From NCBI GenBank assembly GCA_964566495.1, contig CAZMIT010000001.1, positions 1 through 56,582 on the forward strand: DNA of 56,582 nucleotides, given 5' to 3'. The position numbers and the translations under genes were made by a program. Source of the stretch: an uncultured bacterium. GTDB lineage: Bacteria; T1Sed10-126. Shown here in pieces: positions 3,799 through 55,336 of the stretch (positions are counted from its first letter, which is position 1; each line of letters begins with the position of its first letter). The notes under the pieces were generated by a model. That model saw only the letters and a list, made by a program, of their open reading frames with translations, was not told the origin of the DNA and searched no databases.

Positions 3799-3811
3799 TT
3801 TTTATACCTCC

Positions 3812-31373: not shown

Positions 31374-33515
31374 TTATACCGGTATTTTTGAAACTTTCGA
31401 GCAAAAACGATGCAGCCGACTGAGCCCGCCCAGCTTCACCTCACGGCGGTCAACATATTCTCCGGCAGGGCAGTCAAGAAACTGGCTGGGCTGGCGCCAC
31501 TTCCAACTTCCCATAATTTTGCGGCGCCAGGCGAAGGTTAAAACTACCTCCTTCCGGGCGCGACTGTAAGCCAGATAGAATAGCCGTTTTTCAATCTCAA
31601 GCTTGTTCGAATCAGGACGTTTGCCGAACGGATAAAGGGGCCAGGTCCCTTCTTCAAGCATGGCAATAATGACCACGTCAAACTCTCGTCCGCAGAGCAA
31701 TCGAGGTGTAGCAACAACTACTGCCTCTTCCTTGTCGACATTAGCCTCCCCAACCTCGCGAGCTCGAATTGAGTCCAGTAACTCTTTCAGAGCCGTAAAG
31801 CTTATAACATCTTTCACTCCAGGTAAAGCCTCCAACCGCTGGTGCATTTTACGTGCCTGGCGTAATAGACTTTTGTCTCGCGCCAGATTCATCTTTTCTT
31901 TTATCAATTCCAGTAATTTTAGCAGGGAAATATTCTCCCCTGAACTAATCAAGTTCTCCACAAATTCTCTCAAGTTATGTAAAAATTGCTTGCCGGTCGC
32001 GCTCTTAACGGGAAATCTCCCCGCCTGGAAAACTTCTTCAACCAAACGACCGGCGGCAGCAAAATTTCTGAGCCCCTCAGAAATTTCCGTCGGATGAAAT
32101 ATACGCAACAGTCGTAAAATATAAAAATCCGCCGAATTCCCCCGCTGCTGACCGGATTGGCTGAGTGCTACTGTCAAGCGAATTATCGACTCAACTATTC
32201 TCGGGACCTCCCGCGACCAAAAATTCATATTTTGTAATATAACCGAGCGACAGGACTTCCTGGCCAGTTGTTCCTTAATTACCATCTGCCGGTTATTCAA
32301 GCGGCTTACAACAGCTATGTCGGCGGGTTCTACCCCTTCATCTAAATACTTTATAACCTTGTGAGCTATGAACTTTTGCTCCTCATCGGCATTGATAGCT
32401 TCAAAAACTGCCGGCGCGGAGCCATATGCCAGGCCAGATTTGTCGCTCAAATTTGCCGGTTTTAACTCGGGATATTGATCTTTTTTAGTGTTCCCTTTAG
32501 CTTCCAGAACATCCATCAGGGCCGCCCAGAGCAGAGTTTTTAAGCGGTAATTTTTAGTCAGTGTCATTACACGCGATTCTGGAAAATAGAGCCGGAATTG
32601 TTCTCGACCATTAAAATCAACAGATTCCTCGTTGCCCCGGATCGTCAGCGGATCACCTGAAGCAAATATACGCTTGTCCGCTGACTCAAACTGGGTGAGT
32701 AAATTAAACTGCAGGGGCGTTAAACTTTGAAAGTCATCAACAAAGACTATCGAATAATCGGTCAAAAACTGCTTGCCTAACTGTGGGTGCCGCCGGAACA
32801 GGTCGATAGAAACAAACAAAAGATCGGCGTAATCAAGGGCGTTACGTTTTCTTTTTAAGCGCCAGTATTTCCTATAAAAAGTAACAACGTCCTGTTCTTT
32901 TCCGGCCGCATTTTTTTGTAACGACTCGGAGGGAATCATCAGCTGACGACGATATTTGCCAGCCTGTCTGTAATAATATTCCGCTTTTTCTGACTTTAGC
33001 CCGCCCGCTGATGTTTCACAGACTAATCGCCACAAGTCGCGGGCCTCGCTACCGCTCAGCAGGTAGAAGTTGTCATCATACGACGAATCAAACTGTTTTA
33101 GAAGTATCTCACCCCGGTAAGTCTCCGTTAATAATTGCAAGCAAAAAGCGTGAAAACTGTAAATTTTATGCGTCGGCGGACTAAAATTAAATTTACGAGC
33201 AACCGATTGACTAAATTTTTGGCGGCGCCGGCGAAGGTTGGCCGCCGTCTCCGCGGACGGTGCCAAAATAAGTAACTCTTCTCCAGGCGCTTGCAACAGT
33301 TCGGAGAGAAAAATGGCTCGTATGAGCAATTCCGTCTTCCCCACACCTGCCATACCCTGCAGGTAAATTGAGTTGTCATCTTTGAAATAGTTTTGGAGTA
33401 TTAAGCGCTGCCGATTATTTAACTCCGGGGGGGTATCAAGGTAAGCTTTCGCTTGAGCACGCTTGGCTGGCCGTAAATGCTGAAAATTTTTCTCGACAGG
33501 GGAATTCCCTGGCAA
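31374..33515 (-). CDS. UvrD/Rep/PcrA-like superfamily-1 helicase (divergent)
   Basis: The Walker A motif is 'GMAGVGKTE'. The Walker B-like motif is 'IVFVDDFQSL' (canonical DEFQD). It also has 'LTKNYRL' and the C-terminal 'GREFDVVII...EKRLFYLAYSRARKEVVL...PSQFL'. Confidence 0.7.
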   Translation of the reverse strand: MPGNSPVEKNFQHLRPAKRAQAKAYLDTPPELNNRQRLILQNYFKDDNSIYLQGMAGVGKTELLIRAIFLSELLQAPGEELLILAPSAETAANLRRRRQKFSQSVARKFNFSPPTHKIYSFHAFCLQLLTETYRGEILLKQFDSSYDDNFYLLSGSEARDLWRLVCETSAGGLKSEKAEYYYRQAGKYRRQLMIPSESLQKNAAGKEQDVVTFYRKYWRLKRKRNALDYADLLFVSIDLFRRHPQLGKQFLTDYSIVFVDDFQSLTPLQFNLLTQFESADKRIFASGDPLTIRGNEESVDFNGREQFRLYFPESRVMTLTKNYRLKTLLWAALMDVLEAKGNTKKDQYPELKPANLSDKSGLAYGSAPAVFEAINADEEQKFIAHKVIKYLDEGVEPADIAVVSRLNNRQMVIKEQLARKSCRSVILQNMNFWSREVPRIVESIIRLTVALSQSGQQRGNSADFYILRLLRIFHPTEISEGLRNFAAAGRLVEEVFQAGRFPVKSATGKQFLHNLREFVENLISSGENISLLKLLELIKEKMNLARDKSLLRQARKMHQRLEALPGVKDVISFTALKELLDSIRAREVGEANVDKEEAVVVATPRLLCGREFDVVIIAMLEEGTWPLYPFGKRPDSNKLEIEKRLFYLAYSRARKEVVLTFAWRRKIMGSWKWRQPSQFLDCPAGEYVDRREVKLGGLSRLHRFCSKVSKIPV

Positions 33516-33611
33516 GATTAACTTCCCGTGTAAACCATGGTTAAAAGCCGGGGAGCTGCCGGTATAAAAAGTACATAACTGTTCAAGCGGATATAATCTC
33601 TTCCTCGAACT

Positions 33612-33656
33612 TTAAAAAAGGCGCCCTTACCCCGCCAGAACCAGCGGAGTAAGGGC
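33612..33656 (-). terminator. Rho-independent terminator after the 212-aa comEA-like gene
   Basis: On the minus strand, GCCCTTACTCCGC-TGGTTCTG-GCGGGGTAAGGGC forms a 13-bp stem with one G-U pair. It is followed by GCC TTTTTT. Confidence 0.55.
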
Positions 33657-33720
33657 ATTTTCATCAAACTTTTCCCATCAACTACCGCATCTCAGCGACA
33701 AGATGGATTCTTACCAACGG

Positions 33721-34359
33721 TTACTCGACAGTAGCCTCAGGACGAATGTTGTCCAACGTGGCCGGACCAATACCGCTCACGTTAGCAAGGTCGTCGACAG
33801 ACTCAAAATCACCGTGTTCTTCCCGGTAACTTATGATGTCATCCGCTGTGGCGGGACCAACGCGATGTAATTCCGTTAACTCGTCAGCGGAAGCAGTGTT
33901 GATGTTGATAAGATCTGCTTCGTCAACATCGACTTCTTCCTCTTCTTCCTCAACGCCGCGAATTGTATCAAGCGTCGCCGGTCCAATCCCACTAACATCT
34001 GTCAACTCATCAACACTGGAAAAAGGCCCGTGCTGGTCACGATAAGCAATAATGTTTCCGGCTGTCGCGGGACCCACACCGTCGAGAGCGGTCAACTCAG
34101 ACTCTGTCGCAGTGTTTAAATCAATTCCCTGGACGAGAACTTCCTCGGCCTCTACCTCGGGTTCCGGTTCGGGAGCTTCCACCGGGTCAGGTTCCGGGGC
34201 CGGTTCCGGTTCTTCTGGCACTTCCGGAGCCTCCGGGGCTACCGGTTCTTCCGCCGGTGCGGGCGGTTCTGCCGGGTCAGGTTCTTCCGGTTCCTCGGGT
34301 CCACAACCCAGCGTAAACACCAGGGCCAGGGCAGTTAAACAAACAACAAAATACTTCAC
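33721..34359 (-). CDS. comEA: ComEA-like lipoprotein with two tandem helix-hairpin-helix DNA-binding domains
   Basis: It has a lipobox ('FTLGCG') and a Pro/Glu-rich linker. Two ComEA units are present, 'IDLNTATESELTALDGVGPATAGNIIAYRDQHGPFSSVDELTDVSGIGPATL' and 'ININTASADELTELHRVGPATADDIISYREEHGDFESVDDLANVSGIGPATL'. Confidence 0.8.
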   Translation of the reverse strand: MKYFVVCLTALALVFTLGCGPEEPEEPDPAEPPAPAEEPVAPEAPEVPEEPEPAPEPDPVEAPEPEPEVEAEEVLVQGIDLNTATESELTALDGVGPATAGNIIAYRDQHGPFSSVDELTDVSGIGPATLDTIRGVEEEEEEVDVDEADLININTASADELTELHRVGPATADDIISYREEHGDFESVDDLANVSGIGPATLDNIRPEATVE

Positions 34360-34502
34360 TACTATCCCTCCTTAAAAATTAATTAAACTTAAAGTTTTAA
34401 AAATTCACTGCATGCCTCTAAAAGCTACAAGTTCACTACCATTAATACTATATAATCATTTTAGACGGCGCAAGTCAAGGCAAATTTCAGACATATCAAA
34501 AA

Positions 34503-35552
34503 TTATGGACCCAGGAAAGGAAAAGGGTCCGTCTCAACTCTTATTGATTCCCCGTCAGTAAATAAGATTACATGACCGAGCTGATCAGTGCGGAAAATTT
34601 CTCGCACTCCCCTGTTTTCAAGATTTGAAACTACTTCAGGGGACGGAAGCTCGTCGTCCGGGCCTGCTTCTGAGGTAGAAATCAAGGCATAGTCCGGCTG
34701 AACATATTCCAAAAAGGCCTCCGCCGTCGAATCTTCTGAACCGTGATCAGCCACCTTCAGAACATCGGCCGATAACCTATTGCCCCATCGATATGTTAGT
34801 GATTCCTCCTTATCTTCTGGTAGATCACCGGGAAAAAGAAAACTAACCTCGCCAAATTTAACGTAAAGTACGTGGCTGGCCGCCTCCGGGTGACGCTGTT
34901 CGGGATCACCATAAATTACCTCCGCTTTCACAGAAGCACCAAAGTCCAGCTCTGCACGATCTTGCAGCTCACGCCTGGTAACTCCCTGTTGTTCAGCAAG
35001 CTCAACAAGCCTCTGGTAAGCGTTAAAATGTGGTTCGTAACCAGTTAAATAAATTTTCCCGACATCTACTCCACCTGCCTCCAGCAGATCCGGCTGAACA
35101 CCCAGGTGGTGACTGTAAGGTACAAGATTCAACATTTTATCAATTTTTTTCAGACCTATCCGGGAAAAGAAAGGTAGATATAAACGCGGTGCCCAGTTAT
35201 AGGCTCGAACTCCACGTTCAGCCGGGTCGGCTCCCTCCCCCCCGTCAATCAGGACTGTTTTGTTGTCGGGGGCCTGGAGTAAAAATCCATCACCATAGCC
35301 AACGTCAAACATTACCACTGCAAATTCTTCCGGTTCGCGGCCGGGGATAGTGCCGTCCCCCAGAATTTTTACTCCATCGGCAAACTGATCCACTCCAAGC
35401 AGAAAATCAACATAAGCAGGGGCGGCGTAATACCAGAGTCCCGCTGCCAGAGCCAGCAGAACAAATATTATGACCCAGCCTAACAGAGAGGGCTCCTCAA
35501 CTACTTCTTCTGGATCAACTTCCTCTTCAAAATCTGAAAATCTCCGGCCCAT
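34503..35552 (-). CDS. Membrane-anchored ComEC-type metallo-beta-lactamase-fold protein (stand-alone)
   Basis: There is an N-terminal TM segment. 'VVMFDVGYGDGFLLQAPDNKTVLIDGGEG', 'FLFPGDL' and 'LKVADHGSEDS' parallel the ComEC C-terminal domain, but the HxHxDH position reads 'PYSHHLG'. Confidence 0.7.
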   Translation of the reverse strand: MGRRFSDFEEEVDPEEVVEEPSLLGWVIIFVLLALAAGLWYYAAPAYVDFLLGVDQFADGVKILGDGTIPGREPEEFAVVMFDVGYGDGFLLQAPDNKTVLIDGGEGADPAERGVRAYNWAPRLYLPFFSRIGLKKIDKMLNLVPYSHHLGVQPDLLEAGGVDVGKIYLTGYEPHFNAYQRLVELAEQQGVTRRELQDRAELDFGASVKAEVIYGDPEQRHPEAASHVLYVKFGEVSFLFPGDLPEDKEESLTYRWGNRLSADVLKVADHGSEDSTAEAFLEYVQPDYALISTSEAGPDDELPSPEVVSNLENRGVREIFRTDQLGHVILFTDGESIRVETDPFPFLGP

Positions 35553-35584
35553 CTTTTCGCCTGCCTTCCCTGATAGAAAAATTG

Positions 35585-35721
35585 TAACTACTCACCTTAT
35601 CCCCCCCTTAACGGGGGGAAAACAAAGGGGGGTGAAAAACGGTTTTTAAGACCTTTTTGCCCCTCACCCCCGAATCAAGTCCGGGGCAGGCTCTGACCGA
35701 GAGGGGATAGATGAGTAGTTA
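35585..35721. repeat. MITE-like element of about 137 nt with imperfect terminal inverted repeats
   Basis: The termini are 'taactactcaccttatcccc' (35585-35604) and 'ggggatagatgagtagtta' (35703-35721). Internally there is a 'ccccccc ttaac gggggg' hairpin and a 'cccctcacccc' motif. Confidence 0.55.
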
Positions 35722-35728
35722 TGAAAAA

Positions 35729-36607
35729 TTAATGAACAACAGCCATTTCACGTATTTCCTCCAGCGTAACCGGCCCGATACCGGAAATATTTTTCAATTC
35801 CTCCAGGTTATCAAATCCACCACGTTCCTCCCTGTATTCAACAATTTCAGCAGCACGCACGGGGCCCACCCGGGGTAATTTTACTAAATCCTGCTGACTG
35901 GCCGAATTAATATTAATTCGGTCGGGCTCGCTGACCGCCGGCGCAGCGGGAGCTGTCGCTTCGTCGAGGCGGACGTAATCTTCCATTTGCTGAATAGTTG
36001 CCGGCCCCAGGCCGTCAATATTTTGTAACTCTTCCAGGCTTGCAATCCCCCCCTGTCGCTCCCGGTAGCTAATTATCTCCTGCGCCGTCACCTCTCCAAC
36101 CCGGGGCAATTCCTTCAATTTATCAATATCCGCTTCATTTATATCTATCTCCGGCCCTGCCTCCTCCTGCGGTAAATCTGCGACAACCACGTCAGGTCCG
36201 ACGGTTGCTTCCGGTCGAATGTTTTCAACCGTCGAGGGTCCGATACCGCTTATTTCCTTCAAATCATCGATAGTCCTGAACTGGTTACCGGCCTCCCTGT
36301 ATTCCAGTATACTCTTTGCCGTCGCCGGACCTACCTGGGGGAGCTGCTGTAGTTCCTCAAAAGAAGCAGCGTTGACGTCAATCTTCCAGTCGAGTTCAAT
36401 CCGCTGTTTCTCGGACTCTGAAGTGACATAAAGATTTAGTTCTGTTTCGGGAAGTTTGTTCAGTTTGGGGGAAGGCAACTCTCGATCTTCTTCGCCGCTT
36501 ACTTCATCCGCGTGGTAAGTCTCATAGCGCATCGACACACCCGGTAGGGCAATAATACACAAAAAAACCAGCGCTAAGACAAAAAACAGCTGATCCTTAT
36601 TCACCAC
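35729..36607 (-). CDS. comEA: ComEA-like membrane-anchored protein with three tandem helix-hairpin-helix domains
   Basis: There is an N-terminal TM segment. Three units of the form 'N.A...(E/D)L..LP.VGP..A..I..YRE..G.F....(E/D)L..I.G(I/L)GP.T' are present. Confidence 0.8.
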   Translation of the reverse strand: MVNKDQLFFVLALVFLCIIALPGVSMRYETYHADEVSGEEDRELPSPKLNKLPETELNLYVTSESEKQRIELDWKIDVNAASFEELQQLPQVGPATAKSILEYREAGNQFRTIDDLKEISGIGPSTVENIRPEATVGPDVVVADLPQEEAGPEIDINEADIDKLKELPRVGEVTAQEIISYRERQGGIASLEELQNIDGLGPATIQQMEDYVRLDEATAPAAPAVSEPDRININSASQQDLVKLPRVGPVRAAEIVEYREERGGFDNLEELKNISGIGPVTLEEIREMAVVH

Positions 36608-36641
36608 AAACTCCTCCCCTGCTATAGGTTAGAGCCGCGGT

Positions 36642-46457: not shown

Positions 46458-46480
46458 TTTAGAGTTACCCTTTCCTTTGT

Positions 46481-49400
46481 TTAATGGCCTAATACCTCTT
46501 TGATACGGTCAAGCCTGTGCCTCAATCTGGTTGCGTAAGGATCGTCTGGGTTGTCTTCAAGATAGGAATCCAACTCATCTGCGGCAGCGGAATAATCCTG
46601 CTGTTCAATAAGTTCTTGCACTCGGTTAAGGGTCGGCTCATCGCGAATAACTCTATTCAACTCTAAAACAGCAAGGTTTGATCGTAAACTCTTATCTACC
46701 TGGAGTTCTTCTCGCGGATAAATACGCAGAAGCGCTCGCGGCAGGGGAGGCTGACCTATCTGACGGTGTTCAAATCGTTTGACAAACCAGTTGTTAAACG
46801 AGTAGACGCTGGGATCAGTCGCCAACCGGGCCGGTCTAAAACTAACATCTACCTGGTTGCTGCCCTCTATCTCATTCACAGAGGCTGTCGCCTCCCCAGT
46901 AAAAACCAGGCGTAACTCAGCACTATCCGGACGGCGAGAGATGTAAGCACGTGAAACCCCCGGTATCTCTGGTTCTCTTTCCAATAAATCAGCCTCAATA
47001 TTAATTTCTCCGGTCCGCGAATATATAGCGTAAATTTGAGCTTCCCCATTCTCAAAAAGTTCGGGCAGAGCCTCTGACGGAGCCAGTTGTCTGCGACTGC
47101 TCGTGCGCAGTCGGACGCCGGCAAAATCCGGTGGAAGTCTCTCTATTTTGTTGTCATAAGCATCAAATATTGCCAGCTCCACAGAAAAAGCTCGGCCAGC
47201 TACTACCCGTTCCGGCGCCTGAACGCTAACTCTTTCCGGCTCTGCCGGCGAGACATAAAATCTATCCGAAAGATTTTCCAGTTCACCGGCACGCGCCGCC
47301 AGCTGAAGCTCTCCGGCCTCCTTATATTCGATAGAAGTCTCAACTTTACCCTGGCTAAAATCAGCAGCCGTCAGCCGGGCAAGCTTTTGCTCGGCCGGAA
47401 GCCCCCAAATTTCTATGTCTTCTTCCAGTTCCTCTATTTCTTCTACCGTATTTCCATAAAGATCTTCAGCAATTAAACGCACGGGAAAAGACTGACCGGC
47501 CTTTACTTCACCGGGAGTTTCCAGATACAGGCGCGCCAGTTCAGCCGGTCGCACACTAACCGGAGCCGAGCTCCCAAGAAGCCGCTCACGCCGGTCCTGT
47601 ATTTGAAGTGACATCACTTCAGCAACAAAATATTGCACATCCATAACAAATGCCGGCGCCTGCAGCTGATCAGCACTGATTTGGGCCGGAAACACCTCGC
47701 CATGACCAGTTGACTCGATGGTTAGTGGAGCAATATCTTCCGGCACCTGTTGCAGTGGATTGCCAAACCTGTCCAGCAGTTGAATCGAAACTCGCACTGT
47801 TTCCCCGGCTGTACTCTGTCCCGGTGTTCGGACCGCCACTCGATGAAAGTCTGCCGGTCTTATCTCTACCGGGCTGCTCCACTCTTCTAAATCATACTCG
47901 TAAAATTCCACAAATATTCTTGACCGCTCAGCTTTATCGCTCCTGAATTCAGCCTCATACGTGCCGTCAATAAAACGGGCCGGCGAGATTTCCCGGTCCT
48001 GGACCTCAGTTAAATCTTCCGGGGAAATTAAAACTTCACCGGCCAAATGGGCCGGATCTTCAATACGGTTACCGTAACTATCGTAAAGCGCAAGTTTAAC
48101 TTTGAAGGTTTCACCGGCTTTTGCGGTTTCGGGTGTCTCAACCATTATTTCTCCAGGCGCAGCAGGAACTATTCGTATCCTATCGCTTTCAACTGCTACT
48201 TCCTCGTCAAAAGTTTTTACCCCCAGGCGGGTTGATCTGGCTTCAGTATCACTGAACACAACCTGTGCCCGGCCATCCTCAAAAAGAGCCGGCCCGATTT
48301 CTCGATCTCTTTCCGGTCGATCACTGCTAAAAATTACGAGAGTATCACCCACTTCAGAATATCGTCGAATACGATTGCCGAACTCGTCGTAGGCTGTCAA
48401 ATGTACGTCGAACTCTTCACCGGCTGGAGCTTCGCGAGGTAATCTCACCTCAATATCAGACAGCTCGCCAGCTCTGGCCCGCATCCGCGTGCTGCGTGCC
48501 TCAACAGCTCGTTCTCTATCCTCAACCAGGATCCGGAACGTCTCCGCCCGGTCGTAGACCAATTCAGTAAAAACTACACCATCCTCAAATTCTTGCGGGC
48601 TTAGCCGCTCCGGTTCAATACTTCCCGCCCCGGTGGAATGAAGCTCCACCCCGGTCCCCACTTCGGAATAGTTTTCAATTATATTGCCAAATCGGTCCCG
48701 GGCTTCGATTGCGATTCTAAACTGACGCCCCGCCGCCACCGTTTCTGGCACAGAAACAACAAATTCAGCCAGAAGACCGGGCAAGATACTTATCGGCTCG
48801 CTCGCTTTACTAATTTCTCGCACCTCGTCCTCAACAATTAACTCCACCTCTTCTGCCACCCGGTATTGTATTTCAAATTCGACTTCCCCCTCACTAATCT
48901 CCATCGCCGGTATAAACTCAGGCTCAGGAGTTTCCTGGCCAGTCGTCCGCAGACTTAAACCATTGGTCATTTCGTGATATCTTTTCACCCGGTTGCCGTG
49001 ACGATCAAGTATTTTTATGCGCACCGGAAAGTTTGCCCCTGCTCTAGCTGTATCCGGGGTGTCAACTTCAAAAACCTCCGGTGGCCCCGAAGCTACGCTG
49101 ATTGTCTCCGACCAGCCAGTCGCAACGTTGTCAACTTCACTCGCCTTTATTCTAATTTCTTCAGATTTATCATACTGGAGGGAAAGGGTTAGCCGGCCGT
49201 CCGTAAATTCTTCCGAGTTGACCCTTGCCGGTTGCAACTCACCGGGGCCGTCCGCCGAAAGCTCAATCGTTCGCTCCATCTCATCATAATCCTCAACCGG
49301 ATTACCCTCAGCATCTACCACAGTCAGCCTGAACGAAAAATCAACGCCGGCTCGCGCTGTTGGTGGGGATTCAACTAATATTTCCTCCGGTTCTCCCGGT

Positions 49401-49507
49401 GTTACTACTACCGCGGAAGCGGGGCTGGGAAGAACTCCACCTACCATCACTATTATTAAAGAAACAAGCAAAACTGGTGAAAGAAAAAAGCATTTATTCG
49501 TGTTCAT
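46481..49507 (-). CDS. Secreted protein with eight tandem Ig-like repeats plus C-terminal AMIN-like and TPR-like modules
   Basis: It has a signal peptide. Eight units of about 100 aa share 'V.(T/A)P....AG..F.V.(I/L)...D..GN.(I/V)..Y'. It is located between the pilP-like gene and pilQ. Confidence 0.65.
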   Translation of the reverse strand: MNTNKCFFLSPVLLVSLIIVMVGGVLPSPASAVVVTPGEPEEILVESPPTARAGVDFSFRLTVVDAEGNPVEDYDEMERTIELSADGPGELQPARVNSEEFTDGRLTLSLQYDKSEEIRIKASEVDNVATGWSETISVASGPPEVFEVDTPDTARAGANFPVRIKILDRHGNRVKRYHEMTNGLSLRTTGQETPEPEFIPAMEISEGEVEFEIQYRVAEEVELIVEDEVREISKASEPISILPGLLAEFVVSVPETVAAGRQFRIAIEARDRFGNIIENYSEVGTGVELHSTGAGSIEPERLSPQEFEDGVVFTELVYDRAETFRILVEDRERAVEARSTRMRARAGELSDIEVRLPREAPAGEEFDVHLTAYDEFGNRIRRYSEVGDTLVIFSSDRPERDREIGPALFEDGRAQVVFSDTEARSTRLGVKTFDEEVAVESDRIRIVPAAPGEIMVETPETAKAGETFKVKLALYDSYGNRIEDPAHLAGEVLISPEDLTEVQDREISPARFIDGTYEAEFRSDKAERSRIFVEFYEYDLEEWSSPVEIRPADFHRVAVRTPGQSTAGETVRVSIQLLDRFGNPLQQVPEDIAPLTIESTGHGEVFPAQISADQLQAPAFVMDVQYFVAEVMSLQIQDRRERLLGSSAPVSVRPAELARLYLETPGEVKAGQSFPVRLIAEDLYGNTVEEIEELEEDIEIWGLPAEQKLARLTAADFSQGKVETSIEYKEAGELQLAARAGELENLSDRFYVSPAEPERVSVQAPERVVAGRAFSVELAIFDAYDNKIERLPPDFAGVRLRTSSRRQLAPSEALPELFENGEAQIYAIYSRTGEINIEADLLEREPEIPGVSRAYISRRPDSAELRLVFTGEATASVNEIEGSNQVDVSFRPARLATDPSVYSFNNWFVKRFEHRQIGQPPLPRALLRIYPREELQVDKSLRSNLAVLELNRVIRDEPTLNRVQELIEQQDYSAAADELDSYLEDNPDDPYATRLRHRLDRIKEVLGH

Positions 49508-49732
49508 TCTTCATCTCCCTGGTGTATTCATTATTACAGACGCTACCAAATTTACTGTATTAAACAAGAGAACATCTAAAAATGCAAGCATTATCCGTTT
49601 TCAGGCCAGTTAAAATTACCGACTACTGATTACCGATTACTGCCCTGATCTTGTAATTTCGGAGCTGCGGTCACTACGTTTCCTTGTTTGGAATAAAGTT
49701 GAAAAATCCAGTAATTGACTATCCTCTCTTTT

Positions 49733-50434
49733 TCAATAAAGATTTATATATTCTTTCAAATCTCGCCGGCGAACGGCCGGAAACTCGAGCGCGGTAGTCT
49801 CGTAACCGGGTGCTGTTAACGTAATCGCAGTGTCACTTATATTTTTCACCCTGTAATCTGTCGGACCTATAGTCTCGCCGCGACGAAGAACAAAATCTTC
49901 TTCGTCCGCTATGCTCCTTATAATTGCAACTCGATGCACATCATCAATGAAAATTCTCCCCCTCGCCTCAAATCCTTCGATTTGAGGCAATTCCTCTTCT
50001 TCAGGTTCTTCATCCGGGTCATCGGGATCGTCCGGGTCTTCAGGTTCTTCCTCGTCTTCGTCAACGACAGCTTCCACTAACTCTATGTCTTCCGGGGCAA
50101 CCAGGCCGAGTTCTCTGCGTGTAGCCAGGGGAATAAATAGGTCAGTGCCCACCAGTTCTGCGTATCTCTCCGGAAAATCAGCTTCTTCAATGTCTTCCGC
50201 TGGCTCTATTTCTATCTCATCCTCGATATCTTCAAGCGCCTCCAGCTCCGCCATCTGTTCGGAGTAATCGGCTGTTGGATCGAGGTTGTAACGCTCATAA
50301 AGGTCCTCGTGAGCCGTGTAAATACGAAATAAATAAAACCCGGCAACCAGGTTTAATACTACTAATATACCGGCCCCCGCCATAATAAGGTCAACCTTTT
50401 CATTAACCTGCTGCCAGAGCTTCTCAATATCCAT
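49733..50434 (-). CDS. pilP: PilP-like pilus assembly protein (TM-anchored, acidic linker)
   Basis: It has a TM anchor and an acidic linker. The C-terminal beta-domain pattern is 'GRIFIDDVHRVAIIRS...FVLRRGETIG..YRVKNISDTAITL'. It occupies the position after pilO. Confidence 0.5.
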   Translation of the reverse strand: MDIEKLWQQVNEKVDLIMAGAGILVVLNLVAGFYLFRIYTAHEDLYERYNLDPTADYSEQMAELEALEDIEDEIEIEPAEDIEEADFPERYAELVGTDLFIPLATRRELGLVAPEDIELVEAVVDEDEEEPEDPDDPDDPDEEPEEEELPQIEGFEARGRIFIDDVHRVAIIRSIADEEDFVLRRGETIGPTDYRVKNISDTAITLTAPGYETTALEFPAVRRRDLKEYINLY

Positions 50435-50992
50435 TTAATCCAGCTCCTCCTCGGCCTCTTCCTCCAGCATATAGGCGGCCAGTTCCAGACTAACGTCATA
50501 CTCATCCGGGTCGTCGGTAGGCGTTATATCTATATCAATAATGTCTACAAGCCGCTCCATTTCATTAAAACGCCAGAGCATTCGCGTTAATTCCCCGATT
50601 GTAATGTTATCAAAGGCAGCAATAATGCCCATGCTAACTACTTCGTCTCGCTCTTCAATCGGTCCTTCGTCAAAAGTTCTGATATTTTCTGACGAAATTC
50701 CCGCCGCTTCCGCTTCATTTTCCAATTCCACAATTAATTCCAGAAATTCGCCGCCCTCGGGAAGACGTCGCTCGGCTTCCAGCAACTGCTTCTGAATCTC
50801 CTCGTATTCATCAATTAGCTCCTCCAACCCCCTTGCCCTCGCTTGGGCTTCACGGATCCTTTCGACGTTCTGCTCAATTTCCTCCCCTCGCTCTACATAT
50901 TCCTCCCAGCCCGGTCCAATGACGTAGTAATACCCAACCACAAGAGCGGCTATTATAAGACCAATAAGCATCACTTTTTCTCGTTGTTCCAT
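50435..50992 (-). CDS. pilO: Type IV pilus assembly protein PilO
   Basis: 185 aa, with an N-terminal TM segment, a coiled coil and a ferredoxin-like C-domain. It abuts the pilP-like start (50434/50435) and lies 3 nt after pilMN. Confidence 0.7.
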   Translation of the reverse strand: MEQREKVMLIGLIIAALVVGYYYVIGPGWEEYVERGEEIEQNVERIREAQARARGLEELIDEYEEIQKQLLEAERRLPEGGEFLELIVELENEAEAAGISSENIRTFDEGPIEERDEVVSMGIIAAFDNITIGELTRMLWRFNEMERLVDIIDIDITPTDDPDEYDVSLELAAYMLEEEAEEELD

Positions 50993-50995
50993 CGC

Positions 50996-53599
50996 TTACT
51001 CCTCAAATTTCATCGAAAATTGCAGTACAAAAGGACGCATATCCAATTCATCCTCACCAACCACAAAGCTCTCCCTGTCCCACTCCAGACCAATTTCTTC
51101 CTCTACATAATCCAGCTCTTCTATCCAGTTACGAATTGTTGTTATATCCTCATACTCATCAGTAACCCCTTCAATAGTTAGTTCGCCCCTGGAGTAGCGA
51201 AAAGAATCAAACCAGGTGTGACTGCCCATCTCCAGACCTTCATGCGGGTCAGTCAACATACTTAACTGGAGCAGAAAATCTAAGATCCTTGCCCTTTCCT
51301 GTTCTAATTCCTCAATAACCCTGAGCCGCTGAGCAATACGATCGCGATCGCTTTCCAGTTCGTCTTTGCGGTTAATAATCGGTTCAAGCTCTCCGTATAC
51401 TTCAAGCGACTGTTCATAAACCTGCCGCCGATTTTCATACTGCAAGTATGCAGTCGCCGCTAACATAAGAACAAAAACTGCCGCCAGCGCTCCGAGAACA
51501 GATAGTTTTTTCTTTCTTTCCCGGGCCTGCCGCTGCTGAATAAATTCTTCCGGCACCAGGTTGAAGTCAAGTACCGAAAGCTCCTCAATTGAACGTAGTT
51601 GAAGCCCTGCCACTACTAAATTTTCCAGTTTTTTCTCCTCTTCAACCCCCTCGATTGCTTCAGATACTTTCAGCCGCCGGACGGGATAGTCAAGACTGTT
51701 GGAAATAAATTCCGGTAAGTTCTTTAGTTTCGCCGTGCCACCGGCGAGAATAATTTCCTCTATTTCACCGCCCCCTAACTCAGAACTAAAATAATCAAAA
51801 GTATGTCTTAACTCTCCCACTAACCTGTCTATCTTTGGTTTAATTGCCTCCCCCACTGCTTTTGCCTTTTCTTCGTCTTCCGACTCCCCCGGGGCCTCTT
51901 CGGCGGCCGCCGCCCCCAGACTCAAACCTCCCCCCATCAGCTCATCCTCATCGTCATCATCCTCTTCTTCCTCCTCTTCGTCGCCCCCTAACATTCCTCC
52001 CCCCAGGTCCAGGCCGTCCCCCTCTTCTTTTGCTTCAGCCTCTTCTCCCGGCGCTTCCGTTTCCGCTTCGTCTTCCTCCGATTCCTCCTCTGCTGACGGT
52101 TTCCTGGGTTGTCCCAGTTCCGGAGTTTCTTTGTCCCCCTCGTCTTCTTCCTCGTCCAGTTGCGCCGTATCAAGTTTGAGCTCATCCGCATCCTCGGGCG
52201 GCTTCGGGGGCTCTGTTTCTTCCTCTTGCTCCGCTTCTGATTGTTCGGCCTCTTTCGATTTTGTTTCTTCCTCGTCCGGGGCGGGCGGCTCTACTTCCGC
52301 CTTTTCAGACTCGGTTTCTGTTTCGTCAACCTCACTTTTTGAAGGTTCCCGCGCTGTCCCCAGGCTTAGCCCCTCAAGCCCCCCAGCCTCCTCGTCTTCC
52401 TCCTCTTCTTCCTCTTCTCCCGCCGCAGTTTCTTTTTCTGTAGCCACGTCCTCTTCAGTTGAAGTTTCTGCTTCTTCATCCGTTGGCGGCTCCGGCGGCG
52501 CAGGCGGCGATTCCTCTTTTTCAGCTTCATCCCCTTCGGGTTCTCCTTCAGTGGGGGACGCCGGCGCTCCAAGTTCTAAATCTCCCAGCCCTCCCTCTTC
52601 CTCAGTGGCAGCTTCTTCTTCATCAGCCGGCGCTGGCGGCGGTTCCTCTTCTCCGGATGGAGGCGGTGGCGCTTCTTCTGCCCCTTCTTTCTCTTCTTCT
52701 GCTGCTCCTGGCGGTGGGGGCGGTTCCTCTTCCTCAGGCGGCGCTGGGGCTTCTTCAGACTCTTCTTCTCCTTCTTCTCGCTCGGCGGCCATTTGCTCCA
52801 GAGCGTCCATCCCTGAAGTTCCCGGCGTTTCCTCAGTCGGTTCACCTTCAAGTGGTACGTGACCCAGTTCATGTTTCAGCCGCCGCGCTTCTGCAGCCTC
52901 CACTTCCAGTTTCTTTTCTATCGCCTGGTCAAGGGAACCACCGGCAACTGATGCTGAACGAGCAAAATATAGCGTCTCCCCCTCAAAAACCATTATGTCC
53001 GTATTCCCGTGGCCAATGTCAACAAGCGCCCTCGGCTTGGCATCATCCCCGTTGCCACCACGACCCCACATGTGCGTGTATAAGTTAAATAGCGAAAATA
53101 CAGTAACGTCTACAACTTCAGGAGATAAACCTGAGCGGTGAATTATTTCCAGGTGATTGTTCAAATTGTCCTCTTTTATAGCGGCAAGAATAATCTCATA
53201 ACCGTCTTCAGAGCTGGAAATAACATGGTGGTCCATCACAACCTGGTCGAGTGGAAAAGGAATGTGGCTCTCGGCTTCGTAACCGATCACCTTGGCCATC
53301 CGCTCCTCCGGCATGGAAGGCAGTTCCATCCGCCGAATAATCACGTCGTTGGCAGGCAGGGCAAGCAATACTTTTTGTTTCTCGGATATACTGTTTCTAT
53401 CAATTATTTCTGTTAAGGCTTCGATACACCCGTCCACGTATTCTTCGGAGGGAACGTCAAGGAGAGATTCATCATCTACAAGGGAGAACTGAACGGTCTC
53501 GTCGGAAACCGTCGCCTTACCGGCTTTTAGCGCCGAAGCACCAAAGTCTATGGCAAGGTAGTCACCGCCGCCGCCAAATCCAAACAAACCCATCGTCAC
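50996..53599 (-). CDS. pilM: PilM-PilN fusion protein with a polyacidic insertion of about 330 aa
   Basis: The actin-like ATPase motifs are 'YLAIDFGASALKA', 'ALVDIGHGNTDIMVF' and 'IILAGGTAKLKNLPEFIS'. A PilN module follows ('DFNLVPEEFIQQRQARERKKK' plus a TM segment). An E/P-rich low-complexity block covers aa 248-578. Confidence 0.8.
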   Translation of the reverse strand: MTMGLFGFGGGGDYLAIDFGASALKAGKATVSDETVQFSLVDDESLLDVPSEEYVDGCIEALTEIIDRNSISEKQKVLLALPANDVIIRRMELPSMPEERMAKVIGYEAESHIPFPLDQVVMDHHVISSSEDGYEIILAAIKEDNLNNHLEIIHRSGLSPEVVDVTVFSLFNLYTHMWGRGGNGDDAKPRALVDIGHGNTDIMVFEGETLYFARSASVAGGSLDQAIEKKLEVEAAEARRLKHELGHVPLEGEPTEETPGTSGMDALEQMAAEREEGEEESEEAPAPPEEEEPPPPPGAAEEEKEGAEEAPPPPSGEEEPPPAPADEEEAATEEEGGLGDLELGAPASPTEGEPEGDEAEKEESPPAPPEPPTDEEAETSTEEDVATEKETAAGEEEEEEEDEEAGGLEGLSLGTAREPSKSEVDETETESEKAEVEPPAPDEEETKSKEAEQSEAEQEEETEPPKPPEDADELKLDTAQLDEEEDEGDKETPELGQPRKPSAEEESEEDEAETEAPGEEAEAKEEGDGLDLGGGMLGGDEEEEEEDDDDEDELMGGGLSLGAAAAEEAPGESEDEEKAKAVGEAIKPKIDRLVGELRHTFDYFSSELGGGEIEEIILAGGTAKLKNLPEFISNSLDYPVRRLKVSEAIEGVEEEKKLENLVVAGLQLRSIEELSVLDFNLVPEEFIQQRQARERKKKLSVLGALAAVFVLMLAATAYLQYENRRQVYEQSLEVYGELEPIINRKDELESDRDRIAQRLRVIEELEQERARILDFLLQLSMLTDPHEGLEMGSHTWFDSFRYSRGELTIEGVTDEYEDITTIRNWIEELDYVEEEIGLEWDRESFVVGEDELDMRPFVLQFSMKFEE

Positions 53600-53792: not shown

Positions 53793-55151
53793 CTACTCTG
53801 CAGGATTATTTTCCAGTTTATAGTGTAAACTTTGACGTGATATCCCCAGCCGGCGGGCCGCTTCGGACTTGTTCCCGTCGCACTCTCTAAGCACTGACTC
53901 TATTATCTTTGTCTCCAGATTGTTCAAAATTTGTGGCAACTCATCGCCATACTTTTGCCAGTTGATGCTTTCAACCTCCTCCCCAGCCGGTTCGGGGCCA
54001 GGTGCTTGCAGTTCGGCAGGCAGATCAGACAATTTTATTTCCTCGCCCGTCGTTAAAACTATAACTCGCTCCAGAATGTTTCGCAACTCCCGAACGTTAC
54101 CCGGCCAGCGATAGCTTTTCATTGCCTCCAGTGCCGCCTCGCTAAAATTGTCAGAATTAACATCCCAGGCCTCAACCTGTGCGAAATAATCAATTAACTC
54201 CGGTATATCTTCGCGATGATTGCGTAGCGGAGGGGCCGTAATTTTAATTGTGTTTACCCGGTAGAAAAGATCTCGTCTGAACTCATCCGCCTTAACAAGT
54301 TCGGAAAGCTGCCGGTTAGTCGCCGCTACCAGGCGAACATCTACCTCTTTTTTTACCTCGCCGCCTAACCTGGACAAATTCCCCTGCTCCAGCACCCGCA
54401 ACAGCTTTGGCTGCAGCTCCAATGCCAGCTCACCAATTTCATCAAGAAAAAGCGTCCCACCATCTGCCAGTTCTATTTTACCCTTTTTTGTCTCATCGGC
54501 TCCGGTGAACGCTCCTTTCTCGTGCCCAAACAGCTCGCTTTCTAACAGCTCCGCCGGAATAGCAGCACAATTTATCGCCATAAAAGGAGCACCAAAACGG
54601 GGGCCTCGACTGTGGATGGCGCGGGCAATCAACTCTTTACCTGTCCCTGTTTCTCCTTCGATTAAAACGTTGGAAGACTCCGGCGCCACTTTGTCAATTA
54701 AATCTTGCACTTCCCGCATCGCTTCTGAATCGCCAACAAGTTTCTCCTCCTCGAGCAGTGAACGCTGACTCTCACGCAAACCTTCGAGCTGATTTGCACG
54801 TTTCAATTCCTCGGCAATTCGATCCACTATAATCTGTATTTCATCGCCGCCAACCGGCTTCTCAAGATAATCCCACGCCCCCTGTTTCATTGCCTCCACG
54901 GCAGTATCAATACTGCCGTGACCGGTAATGACAATAACGGGTAGCTCAGCCGATAGTTCGCGGACTCGCTCGAGCAGTTCTAAACCACCCACCTCGGGCA
55001 TCCGCAGATCAGTTATCAGACAGTCTACCCGCGACTGCTCGACCCACTCCAGGGCCATCTCGGGACTGTCGGTAACTTTCGTCTCTTGCTCCACCTTGTC
55101 GGCCAGCAACTCAGCCAGCGATAAGTCGTCATCAACTATTCCCACACGCAC
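53793..55151 (-). CDS. Sigma-54-dependent response regulator (NtrC/PilR family)
   Basis: It has a receiver domain, an AAA+ domain ('GETGTGKELIARAIH', 'ESELFGHEKGAFTGA') and a C-terminal Fis-type HTH ('NKSEAARRLGISRQSLHYKL'). The start codon is GTG. Confidence 0.9.
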   Translation of the reverse strand: MRVGIVDDDLSLAELLADKVEQETKVTDSPEMALEWVEQSRVDCLITDLRMPEVGGLELLERVRELSAELPVIVITGHGSIDTAVEAMKQGAWDYLEKPVGGDEIQIIVDRIAEELKRANQLEGLRESQRSLLEEEKLVGDSEAMREVQDLIDKVAPESSNVLIEGETGTGKELIARAIHSRGPRFGAPFMAINCAAIPAELLESELFGHEKGAFTGADETKKGKIELADGGTLFLDEIGELALELQPKLLRVLEQGNLSRLGGEVKKEVDVRLVAATNRQLSELVKADEFRRDLFYRVNTIKITAPPLRNHREDIPELIDYFAQVEAWDVNSDNFSEAALEAMKSYRWPGNVRELRNILERVIVLTTGEEIKLSDLPAELQAPGPEPAGEEVESINWQKYGDELPQILNNLETKIIESVLRECDGNKSEAARRLGISRQSLHYKLENNPAE

Positions 55152-55292
55152 AACATTTCACCACGCAATCATTTCCAGGTTTGACCTCCCGGTCGGCATT
55201 CCGGCCACCAACCCGCAAAACACCAGCTAAAAGCTCAAAGCCAAAAGCTGAAAGCTAATTCAAATTCATCAAGTGCTCATAATCTTGTTCAT

Positions 55293-55336
55293 GTTCTTGA
55301 ACTTGACGTCATCCCGGCCTTCGAGCCGGGATCCAT
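55293..55336 (+). repeat. REP-like hairpin element (44 nt), copy A, between kinase and regulator genes
   Basis: The sequence is 'gttcttgaacttgacgtcatcccggccttcgagccgggatccat'. Confidence 0.8.

What the first reader, a model, noticed from the sequence alone, without database searches (positions are those of the whole stretch)
31374..53599. A 22-kb supercluster joining a complete ComEA/ComEC uptake module to a pilMN-O-P-Q outer-membrane module
On one strand and with short gaps, the following genes are encoded (in the order transcribed):
- pilM-pilN fusion, pilO and a pilP-like gene
- a 1008-aa Ig-repeat protein and a 1613-aa pilQ
- a GAF membrane protein, ndk and a small membrane protein
- comEC, a triple-HhH comEA, a stand-alone ComEC-type beta-lactamase protein and a double-HhH comEA lipoprotein
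- after a terminator, a UvrD-like helicase

The NtrC-type regulator and its kinase sit just upstream. In model organisms the secretin/alignment operon and comEA/comEC are usually at separate loci.

Nearly every component here is architecturally atypical, as the separate findings describe. This suggests a specialised DNA-uptake or DNA-handling machine rather than a generic type IV pilus locus. No pilin, PilB/T ATPase or PilC platform gene is present in the window.
Basis: partly seen in the sequence, partly recalled or inferred. Interest (0 to 1): 0.72.

Follow-up and report, generated by a model that had tools for sequence, protein, structure and literature searches.

The report
Pilus-secretin and DNA-import genes in one cluster
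An uncultured salt-loving bacterial phylum keeps the outer-membrane pilus gate and the inner-membrane DNA-import channel in one conserved gene cluster, and the gate protein carries DNA-uptake-type domains, which points to a hard-wired DNA-uptake route that has not been tested experimentally.

Summary
All listed genes lie on the minus strand at the stated coordinates. There is one strong terminator, after the last comEA, and no pilin, PilB/T or PilC gene in the window.

The window belongs to candidate phylum T1Sed10-126 ('Ca. Salsurabacteriota'). The order PilMN-PilO-PilP'-Ig-secretin-(GAF-like)-ndk-small TM protein-ComEC-ComEA-MBL is kept wherever contigs are long enough. This holds down to 30-35% secretin identity, while the flanks change.

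The cluster is a junction of two older modules:
- The secretin module exists without ComEC in a distant lineage.
- The ComEC-ComEA-MBL trio exists without a secretin in Ca. Ozemobacteraceae.

Corrections and additions:
- In two relatives, pilB-pilB'-pilT-pilC-pilin sit directly upstream. This is therefore the lineage's type IVa pilus cluster extended by competence genes, not a pilus-free machine.
- The secretin ends in two ComEA-like HhH modules whose hairpins are degenerate.
- ComEC's own nuclease domain has lost its metal ligands. The stand-alone membrane-anchored MBL paralogue probably supplies that activity in trans.
- UvrD is not a conserved member.

I found no description of this in the searched literature. 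It is a new variant of a known kind. Function is inferred only.

The parts
55620..56474 (-). Small membrane histidine kinase (284 aa), the PilS-position partner of the NtrC-type regulator
   Evidence: HATPase_c/HisKA hits. Conserved upstream of the cluster in L003, L011, L019, L022, L026 and L043. Absent in L004 and L025.
53793..55151 (-). NtrC-type sigma-54 activator (REC + AAA+ + HTH_8)
   Evidence: Sigma54_activat 236 bits. No sigma-54 promoter consensus in the 193-bp gap before PilMN.
50996..53599 (-). PilM fused to a PilN/GspL-C-like segment. It has a roughly 320-aa acidic low-complexity insert (residues 255-575) and one TM (699-717).
   Evidence: PilM_2 121 bits, GspL_C and TIGR01709 weak, best NCBIfam hit Amuc_1101 family. 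The distant orthologue in L044 also has a weak PilN hit.
50435..50992 (-). PilO/GspM-like bitopic protein
   Evidence: PilO 35.7 bits, above the Pfam cut-off of 22. 3-nt gap after PilMN and 0-nt gap to the next gene.
49733..50434 (-). TM-anchored protein with a PilP/GspC HR-domain fold
   Evidence: No Pfam or NCBIfam hit. hhalign against a true PilP is not significant. In the AF2 model, residues about 150-220 have pLDDT about 88. Best Foldseek hits are GspC HR 3oss_C (TMt 0.83, rmsd 1.8 A), PilP 2y4y/2lc4 and PulC HR 6hcg.
46481..49507 (-). Secreted or anchored protein with 8 tandem Ig-like repeats of about 103 aa and a helical C-terminus
   Evidence: Weak Big_1/Filamin/Ig hits. Repeat register at residues 53, 156, 259, 362, 464, 567, 670 and 770. 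Orthologue in every long locus except L009.
41616..46457 (-). Giant secretin: TPR-like N-terminus, AMIN, Big_1, N0, 3 Secretin_N, Secretin, then 2 ComEA-like HHH_3 modules (about residues 1430-1560) and an acidic tail
   Evidence: HhH homology from Pfam (45 bits), PDB ComEA 8dss (E 0.002) and the window's own ComEA (E 7e-7). The Gly-hydrophobic-Gly hairpins are replaced by NID/AVD/GVD.
40383..41579 (-). Two-TM protein: periplasmic PAS/Cache-like domain plus cytoplasmic GAF-like domain, with no output domain
   Evidence: GAF_2 18.7 bits, below the cut-off. Low-confidence AF2 model (pLDDT 61) with Foldseek hits to the WalK extracellular domain and to GAF domains. A homologue follows the secretin even in L044, which lacks ComEC nearby.
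39863..40276 (-). Nucleoside diphosphate kinase
   Evidence: NDK 181 bits; NF001908 189 bits, above cut-off. Sits in this position in L001, L003, L004, L009, L030 and L043.
39700..39870 (-). 56-aa single-TM protein. It overlaps the end of ndk by 8 nt and lies just upstream of comEC.
   Evidence: Equivalent 51-64-aa genes in L001, L003, L004, L009 and L043, overlapping comEC by 4 nt in L004, L009 and L043.
36642..39653 (-). ComEC: OB fold (DUF4131) + competence channel + degenerate MBL-like C-terminal domain (residues 654-973)
   Evidence: Of the metal ligands H598/D600/D602/H603/H724/H725 of Moorella ComEC, only H598 remains in the window, and none is conserved across the lineage.
35729..36607 (-). 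ComEA with an N-terminal hydrophobic anchor and 3 canonical HhH modules
   Evidence: HHH_3 204 bits; TIGR01259 181 bits, above the cut-off of 152. TM at residues 7-25.
34503..35552 (-). Stand-alone, TM-anchored paralogue of the ComEC MBL nuclease domain
   Evidence: PDB ComEC hits with E 6.5e-18 to 4.5e-15. Conserved VPxSHH, GD/D and xHG motifs in all four orthologues. The Ozemobacteraceae counterpart has the fully canonical HHHNDH and HHGS motifs.
33721..34359 (-). ComEA lipoprotein (lipobox LGC, acidic linker, 2 canonical HhH modules)
   Evidence: HHH_3 153 bits; TIGR01259 152.9 bits against a cut-off of 152.35. Sequence.
33622..33657 (-). Intrinsic terminator closing the cluster
   Evidence: 16-bp stem, 9 GC pairs, T tract. 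The surrounding gap is 85% conserved in L001. Other terminator-like hits are weak, lie inside genes, and are no more frequent than in shuffles.
31374..33515 (-). Divergent UvrD/PcrA-family SF1 helicase; a peripheral neighbour, not a conserved member
   Evidence: UvrD-helicase/UvrD_C hits. The pcrA model scores 144 bits against a cut-off of 911. Absent in L003. L009 has a PD-(D/E)XK nuclease plus a UvrD-like gene that is only 26% identical.

Best explanation
The region is the envelope-spanning part of a type IVa-pilus-dependent DNA-uptake apparatus, encoded as one conserved co-directional cluster in candidate phylum T1Sed10-126.

Shown:
- Two older gene modules have been joined. They are (a) PilMN-PilO-PilP'-Ig-secretin(HhH)-GAF-like and (b) ndk-small TM-ComEC-ComEA-MBL(-ComEA).
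- The junction is kept throughout the lineage.

Inferred mechanism:
- A pilus is built by PilB/PilB'/PilT/PilC and a pilin. These genes are adjacent to the cluster in relatives and lie elsewhere in this genome.
- The pilus works through the giant secretin, which the GspL/GspM/GspC-like alignment proteins hold in register.
- Retraction brings dsDNA through the secretin.
- HhH modules tethered at three levels then hand the DNA across the periplasm. The levels are the secretin C-terminus, a lipoprotein ComEA, and a ComEA with a hydrophobic N-terminal anchor.
- The ComEC OB fold and channel import one strand.
- ComEC's own MBL domain has lost its metal ligands, so the membrane-anchored MBL paralogue encoded two genes downstream probably degrades the other strand in trans.
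- The HK/NtrC pair and the GAF-like sensor protein probably regulate the system.
- The role of ndk is unknown.
For: - Gene identities.
- Same strand, gaps of 0-225 nt, one overlap (ndk and the small ORF), and a single strong terminator at the end.
- Conserved order at 73%, 41%, 35%, 32% and 30% secretin identity (ndk 92% down to 53%), with different flanks (toxin-antitoxin modules, a sulfatase, pilus motor genes).
- Pilus motor, platform and pilin directly upstream in L025 and L026; PilT scores 474 bits, above cut-off.
- Secretin-HHH_3 fusions recur in other lineages, some with strong canonical HhH scores (173-179 bits).
- ComEC-ComEA-MBL trio in Ca. Ozemobacteraceae, with a degenerate cis MBL and a fully canonical stand-alone MBL.
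- Published mutagenesis shows that H598, D602, H603 and D700 are needed for ComEC nuclease activity: PMC12455585.
- dprA is present in the window.
Against: - No experiment or transcript data exist for any member.
- The secretin's HhH hairpins lack the Gly-hydrophobic-Gly signature and often carry Asp, so DNA binding by them is doubtful.
- MBL349 itself lacks H598 and D600 and has His in place of D602, so its activity is uncertain.
- ndk, a housekeeping gene, sits at the junction.
- At 41% secretin identity the housekeeping flank is also syntenic (L003). Part of the conservation may therefore be inertia.
- The two modules are unlinked in L044 and in Ozemobacteraceae, so linkage is not obligatory.
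- No sigma-54 promoter was found.
- comF, comM and the prepilin peptidase were not located.
Confidence: 0.6

Rival explanations
1. This is an ordinary type IVa pilus cluster used for motility or adhesion. It lies next to competence genes through neutral, inherited gene order, and the two halves have no joint function.
For: - The layout pilB-pilT-pilC-pilin-HK-NtrC-pilM..Q in L025 and L026 resembles known complete pil clusters (the comparison with Myxococcus/Geobacter is from my own knowledge).
- ndk lies between the halves.
- Housekeeping synteny also persists in L003.
- The halves are unlinked in L044 and in Ozemobacteraceae.
Against: - The secretin carries ComEA-type modules.
- The junction persists down to 30% secretin identity while the flanks vary.
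- Genes are tightly spaced and there is a single terminal terminator.
- ndk, the small ORF and comEC overlap one another in several lineages.
Confidence: 0.2
2. The same machine serves mainly to import DNA as food (nucleotides, phosphate, carbon) rather than for genetic transformation. ndk is co-encoded to re-phosphorylate the salvaged nucleotides.
For: - ndk is translationally coupled to the small ORF-comEC unit throughout the lineage.
Against: - dprA, the recombination mediator for incoming ssDNA, is present in the window.
- Ndk is cytoplasmic and ubiquitous, so its position may carry no meaning.
- No data separate the two uses, and they are not mutually exclusive.
Confidence: 0.15
3. The apparatus exports rather than imports: a T2SS-like secretion system or a DNA/nucleoprotein release system.
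For: - The alignment proteins have T2SS-like architecture: fused GspL-like PilMN, and a TM-anchored HR-domain protein like GspC.
- The secretin scores higher on the GspD model than on the PilQ model (269 against 214 bits).
Against: - A PilT-family retraction ATPase (474 bits) and an AMIN-domain secretin are T4aP features.
- ComEC and ComEA are known only from import.
- No T2SS pseudopilin set or substrate genes are present in the cluster.
Confidence: 0.05

Closest known systems
T4aP-dependent DNA translocator of Thermus thermophilus (pilMNOWQ; comEA-comEC) and the Vibrio cholerae/Neisseria competence pilus with periplasmic ComEA
   Same: It combines a secretin, a PilM/N/O alignment complex, a retractile pilus motor, an HhH ComEA and a ComEC channel. 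The ComEA-as-ratchet idea comes from PMC3879209.
   Different: - In those models the pil and com genes are at separate loci (my own knowledge; the Thermus papers are only listed). Here they form one cluster.
- ComEA-like modules are fused to the secretin.
- Both ComEA proteins are tethered (lipobox; N-terminal anchor) rather than soluble.
- PilM and PilN are fused.
- The PilP equivalent is TM-anchored.
Canonical three-domain ComEC (OB, channel, MBL nuclease), e.g. Moorella and Bacillus ComEC
   Same: The OB fold (DUF4131), the competence domain and a C-terminal MBL-fold domain are all present and align to solved ComEC structures.
   Different: - The cis MBL domain lacks the HxDxDH and HH ligands in every lineage member.
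- A separate TM-anchored MBL paralogue is encoded downstream. It is canonical in Ozemobacteraceae and modified (VPxSHH) here.
- TIGR00361 scores 132 bits, below its cut-off of 190.
T2SS assembly platform GspL/GspM/GspC with secretin GspD
   Same: There is a fused cytoplasmic actin-like + TM + periplasmic protein, a PilO/GspM-like partner, and a TM-anchored HR-domain protein whose model superposes on GspC-HR bound to GspD (3oss_C, TMt 0.83).
   Different: - Sequence is closer to PilM (121 bits) than to T2SSL (27 bits).
- The secretin has an AMIN domain.
- A PilT ATPase and a single pilin gene accompany the cluster in relatives.
Amuc_1101/Amuc_1098 pilus-complex families of Akkermansia (NCBIfam)
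   Same: Amuc_1101 is the best NCBIfam hit for PilMN (190 bits), and the secretin gives a weak Amuc_1098 hit.
   Different: Both scores are far below the family cut-offs (650 and 750). This is not a member of those families.

Membership tests
T4aP alignment subcomplex (PilM/PilN/PilO/PilP) | PilM actin-like cytoplasmic domain | tested here: met
   PilM_2 121 bits (cut-off 27). TIGR01175 scores 130 bits against a cut-off of 133, so it falls just below the subfamily cut-off.
T4aP alignment subcomplex (PilM/PilN/PilO/PilP) | PilN: bitopic protein with a periplasmic ferredoxin-like domain | tested here: inconclusive
   TM at residues 699-717 followed by a tail of about 150 aa. No Pfam PilN hit. 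GspL_C E 0.0066 and TIGR01709 E 1.3e-6, both below cut-off. The L044 orthologue has a weak PilN hit.
T4aP alignment subcomplex (PilM/PilN/PilO/PilP) | PilO family domain | tested here: met
   PF04350 35.7 bits against a cut-off of 22.
T4aP alignment subcomplex (PilM/PilN/PilO/PilP) | PilP: lipoprotein with a C-terminal HR beta-domain, detectable by sequence | tested here: not met
   No Pfam PilP hit. hhalign against a genuine PilP gives probability 0.3%. The protein has a TM anchor, not a lipobox. Only the fold matches PilP/GspC HR.
T4aP secretin PilQ | Secretin C-domain, N0/N1-type domains and an AMIN domain | tested here: met
   Secretin 123 bits, Secretin_N 128 bits, AMIN 41.6 bits, all above cut-offs.
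T4aP secretin PilQ | Score above the curated PilQ (TIGR02515) or GspD (TIGR02517) cut-off | tested here: not met
   214 bits against 284 for PilQ; 269 bits against 351 for GspD.
T4aP system as a whole | PilB extension ATPase, PilT retraction ATPase, PilC platform and a pilin in the same genome | tested here: inconclusive
   Absent from the window. Present next to the cluster in L025 and L026. pilB, pilB', pilT and pilC lie on another contig of the same metagenome assembly as the window. No pilin was located for this lineage.
ComEC/Rec2 | Competence channel domain and OB fold | tested here: met
   PF03772 124 bits and DUF4131 61 bits. Aligns to solved ComEC 30bt, E 6e-32.
ComEC/Rec2 | Catalytic MBL nuclease domain with H-x-D-x-D-H, D700 and H725 | tested here: not met
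   The fold is present, but only H598 and D700 are retained in the window. The positions vary across orthologues. TIGR00361 scores 132 bits against a cut-off of 190.
ComEA | HHH_3 DNA-binding repeat with G-hydrophobic-G hairpins, and a score above the TIGR01259 cut-off | tested here: met
   ComEA3 181 bits and ComEA2 152.9 bits against a cut-off of 152.35. VGP/GIGP hairpins are visible in the sequence. For the secretin tail this is NOT met: 28 bits, and the hairpins read NID/AVD/GVD.
GAF-domain sensor | GAF domain above the Pfam gathering score | tested here: not met
   GAF_2 18.7 bits against 28.6. The fold match is weak and rests on a low-confidence model.
PilS/PilR-type control of pilus genes | Sigma-54 promoter (TGGCAC-N5-TTGCW) upstream of the regulated genes | tested here: not met
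   No match in the NtrC-PilMN gap. The number of hits across the whole window is no higher than in shuffles.
Natural competence (function) | DNA uptake or transformation demonstrated | not testable with these tools
   The lineage is uncultured. The two papers that describe it mention neither pili nor competence.

The most novel reading that the evidence does not exclude
The proposal is a fixed, tethered DNA conduit. A ring of ComEA-derived modules on the secretin subunits, a lipoprotein ComEA and an anchored ComEA would together form a stationary relay from the outer to the inner membrane. Degradation of the non-imported strand would be carried out by a separate membrane-anchored MBL nuclease, because ComEC's own domain has become a non-catalytic scaffold. 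Secretin-ComEA fusions in several uncultured phyla would then be natural 'Rosetta-stone' evidence that ComEA acts at the secretin exit.
Probability: 0.3. Interest if true: 0.75.

Novelty: new variant of a known kind. Interest (0 to 1): 0.55.

Why it matters
How DNA is handed from the secretin to ComEA and then to ComEC in two-membrane bacteria is still inferred mostly from imaging and genetics in a few model species. Three features here bear on that question.

- A lineage, and scattered others, in which ComEA-type modules are covalently attached to the secretin gives independent genomic evidence for a physical secretin-ComEA hand-over.
- Because all envelope parts are co-encoded, there is a compact gene set to clone for reconstitution.
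- The ComEC(dead MBL)-ComEA-MBL trio suggests that the nuclease step can be supplied in trans. This bears on current ComEC mechanism models.

The cluster also provides a marker for predicting competence in an extreme-halophile candidate phylum. In such habitats high salt should weaken protein-DNA binding, so multivalent tethered HhH arrays would make sense. That last point is my inference.

Tried and rejected
- Sigma-54 promoter search: nothing above chance.
- Rfam and tRNA scans of the window: no hits.
- Profile of the PilP-like family against PDB sequences: nothing. hhalign against a genuine PilP: not significant. Only the fold search worked.
- My eyeballed idea that the Ig protein's C-terminus is an AMIN domain: BLASTP shows no similarity to the secretin's AMIN domain, so I dropped it.
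- The idea that the pilus motor genes lie just beyond the window's end: the sequence upstream of HK in relatives is toxin-antitoxin modules. The motor contig of the same assembly does not overlap the window end, and pilC there is followed by a lipoprotein, not a pilin.
- UvrD as a core member: rejected. It is absent in L003, only 26% identical in L009, and separated from the cluster by the terminator.
I repeated it with the same sequences as cluster-member ids.
- Literature searches for secretin-HhH fusions or a pil-com supercluster found no description.
Full report
**What is there**

The ORF list shows an unbroken run of minus-strand genes from 56474 down to 31374.

| Coordinates | Gene | Key evidence |
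|---|---|---|
| 55620-56474 | histidine kinase | HATPase_c |
| 53793-55151 | NtrC-type sigma-54 activator | Sigma54_activat |
| 50996-53599 | 867-aa PilM fusion | PilM_2 121 bits |
| 50435-50992 | PilO | PF04350 above cut-off |
| 49733-50434 | 233-aa protein | no family hit |
| 46481-49507 | 1008-aa Ig-repeat protein | weak Ig hits |
| 41616-46457 | 1613-aa secretin | Secretin, Secretin_N, AMIN |
| 40383-41579 | 398-aa membrane protein | sub-threshold GAF hit |
| 39863-40276 | ndk | NDK 181 bits |
| 36642-39653 | ComEC | DUF4131 + Competence |
| 35729-36607 | ComEA, three HhH | HHH_3 204 bits |
| 34503-35552 | 349-aa MBL protein | ComEC-type MBL |
| 33721-34359 | ComEA, two HhH | HHH_3 153 bits |
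| 31374-33515 | UvrD-family helicase | UvrD-helicase, UvrD_C |

A 56-aa single-TM ORF (39700-39870) overlaps the end of ndk by 8 nt.

Gaps between the genes are 0-225 nt. The only convincing intrinsic terminator has a 16-bp stem and lies at 33657-33622, after the last comEA. All other terminator-like hits are weak, lie inside genes, and are no more frequent than in shuffles.

The rest of the window is housekeeping, plus flagellar genes and dprA. No ORF of at least 100 aa matches a pilin, PilB/T or PilC. A six-frame scan for the prepilin motif finds nothing.

**Whose genome**

The secretin's relatives come from MAGs T1Sed10_126, CSSed10_354m, DAL-3Gt_29_1_96C5R, DAL-3Gt_29_2 and Y23_60dBSd3.bin.64. 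Two papers place these in candidate phylum T1Sed10-126, proposed as 'Ca. Salsurabacteriota'. It is an extreme-halophile lineage with very acidic proteomes.

The window's proteins fit this description. Asp+Glu make up 24-28% of the periplasmic components. PilMN carries a roughly 320-aa acidic low-complexity insert.

**Is the linkage conserved?**

Yes. tblastn of the window's proteins against every fetched locus shows the same order wherever contigs are long enough: PilMN-PilO-PilP'-Ig-secretin-GAF-ndk-small ORF-ComEC-ComEA-MBL(-ComEA).

| Locus | Secretin identity | Note |
|---|---|---|
| L001/L005 | 73% | same order |
| L003/L006 | 41% | same order |
| L004 | 35% | two unknown proteins (1409 and 312 aa) replace the GAF-like gene |
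| L043 | 32% | two unknown proteins (1448 and 313 aa) replace the GAF-like gene |
| L009 | 30% | no separate Ig gene |

The flanks differ between loci:
- Toxin-antitoxin modules lie upstream of the kinase in L017 and L020.
- A sulfatase lies upstream in L004.
- UvrD is absent in L003.
- A PD-(D/E)XK nuclease plus a UvrD-like gene that is only 26% identical lie downstream in L009.

One caveat applies. At 41% secretin identity the housekeeping genes downstream are also syntenic. Part of the conservation could therefore be inertia. The argument for selection rests on the deeper lineages and on the overlapping ndk-small ORF-comEC genes.

**Two modules joined**

A filter-free search with the secretin's last 369 residues finds only seven representatives at E<=1e-30. 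It also finds further giant secretins that end in HHH_3 modules: P0201, P0204, P0205, P0242 and a partial Hydrogenedentota protein, P0208. Some of these have strong canonical HhH scores of 173-179 bits.

The locus of P0205 (L044) has PilMN-PilO-239 aa-Ig-like-secretin(HhH)-GAF398 homologue, followed by ribosomal protein genes. It has no ComEC and no ndk nearby.

Conversely, a metagenome scan with a ComEC alignment finds outgroup loci at 28-33% identity. One of them, L038, is Ca. Ozemobacteraceae. These loci keep ComEC (about 1006 aa)-ComEA-stand-alone MBL as overlapping genes, with no secretin, PilMN or ndk within 10 kb. The supercluster is therefore a junction, conserved across this phylum, of two pre-existing modules.

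**The pilus motor**

In L025 (CSSed10_354m) and L026 (the type MAG of Ca. Salsurabacterium abyssinicum), the genes directly upstream are two PilB-type ATPases, a PilT-family ATPase, PilC and a pilin. One PilB has an MshE-type N-domain. PilT scores 474 bits against a cut-off of 319.

The window's kinase occurs identically in ENA assembly ERZ27266011. A different contig of that assembly carries pilB-pilB'-pilT-pilC, 73% identical to L025's PilC. That contig does not abut the window.

This locus is therefore the lineage's type IVa pilus cluster extended with competence genes. It is not a pilus-independent device.

**Component anatomy**

*PilP-like protein.* It gives no sequence match. Its AF2 model has a confident C-terminal beta-domain whose best PDB matches are GspC-HR bound to GspD (3oss_C, TMt 0.83), PilP and PulC-HR. 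The fused PilM-N, the PilO/GspM-like protein and the TM anchor together give the alignment complex a T2SS-like architecture.

*Ig protein.* It has eight tandem repeats.

*GAF-like protein.* The model is poor (pLDDT 61). It resembles a WalK-type extracellular PAS/Cache domain joined to a GAF domain. Its cytoplasmic part is the best-conserved sequence in the cluster.

*Secretin tail.* It is homologous to ComEA: Pfam 45 bits, PDB 8dss E 0.002, and the window's own ComEA E 7e-7. However, the Gly-hydrophobic-Gly hairpins read NID, AVD and GVD in this lineage and G-x-D/S/T in more distant members. DNA binding by these modules is therefore uncertain. They could instead dock ComEA.

**ComEC and the extra MBL**

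ComEC retains a C-terminal MBL-fold domain (residues 654-973). When aligned to the Moorella domain, whose ligands H598, D602, H603 and D700 are required for nuclease activity (PMC12455585), it keeps only H598 and D700. The ligand positions vary among orthologues.

The stand-alone, TM-anchored MBL349 keeps a conserved VPxSHH, the Asp and the xHG motif in all four orthologues. These correspond to the second-metal-site ligands. Its Ozemobacteraceae counterpart is fully canonical (HHHNDH, HHGS), while that organism's ComEC cis domain is again degenerate.

The most economical reading is an old duplication in which the nuclease function moved to the separate protein. Whether MBL349, with its altered motif, is still active is not known.

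**Mechanism, with shown and inferred steps separated**

Shown:
- gene content and order;
- conservation of that order;
- the domain fusions;
- the ligand loss in ComEC's MBL domain.

Inferred:
- pilus retraction through the secretin;
- relay of dsDNA by HhH modules tethered at the secretin, on a lipoprotein (lipobox LGC) and on an anchored ComEA;
- import through ComEC, with strand degradation by MBL349 in trans;
- regulation by HK/NtrC and the GAF-like protein.

No sigma-54 promoter was found. The role of ndk is unexplained. A nutritional use of imported DNA is a reasonable variant, given the report that this phylum transcribes nucleoside transporters but lacks extracellular nucleases.

**Novelty and score**

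Full-text searches found no description of a secretin-ComEA fusion, of this supercluster, or of the split-nuclease ComEC trio. The two papers on the phylum do not mention pili or competence.

Every part belongs to a known family or fold, and the inferred function is the known one. I therefore rate it a new variant of a known kind, with interest 0.55. It is a coherent, conserved and testable architecture in an uncultured phylum, but there is no functional evidence.

Noticed in passing
window 35570-35710 (gap between comEA3 and the MBL gene); L003 15054-15131: The 176-bp gap holds an insert of about 140 bp. It has terminal inverted repeats (AACTACTCA...TGAGTAGTT) and internal G/C-rich hairpins. 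The insert is absent from the 30-bp gap in L001. An 81%-identical 78-nt copy lies between the secretin and the GAF-like gene in L003. It looks like a small mobile inverted-repeat element.
   Followed up: partly
window 55152-55619 (HK-NtrC gap), repeats at 55293-55336 and 55432-55475: The unusually long 468-bp gap contains two copies, 93% identical, of a 44-nt hairpin-containing motif (GGATyCCGGCTCGrAGGCCGGrATGACGTCAAGTTCAAGAAC), plus short 8-nt tandem repeats. The gap is 76% conserved in T1Sed10_126. A 68-aa basic ORF is called there in L028. Other lineages have HK and NtrC only 3 nt apart.
   Followed up: partly
window 5229-6362 (dprA), 4317-5219 (XerC/D-type recombinase), 6359-7138 (TPR protein): dprA, the recombination mediator for incoming ssDNA, lies about 25 kb from the cluster in the same contig.
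   Followed up: no
window 17-4219: Flagellar basal-body genes fliG, fliF, fliE, flgC and flgB are present. The organism is therefore a flagellated bacterium; the secretin and the lipoprotein point to two membranes.
   Followed up: no
window 23801-24880 (+): A 359-aa protein has a C-terminal PilZ (c-di-GMP-binding) domain. In relatives, one of the two PilB paralogues carries an MshE-type c-di-GMP-binding N-domain. This hints at c-di-GMP control of the pilus.
   Followed up: no
L038 9782-14397 (Ca. Ozemobacteraceae) and L032-L042: The outgroup operon is ComEC (1006 aa, degenerate cis MBL)-ComEA (2 HhH)-stand-alone MBL (318 aa, fully canonical HHHNDH/HHGS), with overlapping genes. The split-nuclease ComEC arrangement is therefore wider than this phylum.
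   Followed up: partly
P0208 (Hydrogenedentota, partial), P0242, P0201, P0205/L044: Secretins ending in two or three HHH_3 modules occur in other uncultured lineages. Several have much stronger, canonical HhH scores than the window's secretin.
   Followed up: partly
L004 15158-20325; L043 15197-20484: In one sub-lineage the GAF-like gene is replaced by two proteins of about 1409-1448 aa and 312-313 aa with no Pfam hit.
   Followed up: no
L009 13884-15612: Downstream of the com genes in the most divergent lineage lie a PD-(D/E)XK (Cas4-like) nuclease and a UvrD-family helicase only 26% identical to the window's. The window's helicase is itself a divergent SF1 helicase, far below the PcrA/UvrD cut-offs. 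The recurrent helicase neighbourhood is unexplained.
   Followed up: partly
L011 9950-16160: The secretin of MAG DAL-3Gt_29_2 is split into several ORFs. These are frameshifts, from either assembly error or pseudogenisation.
   Followed up: no
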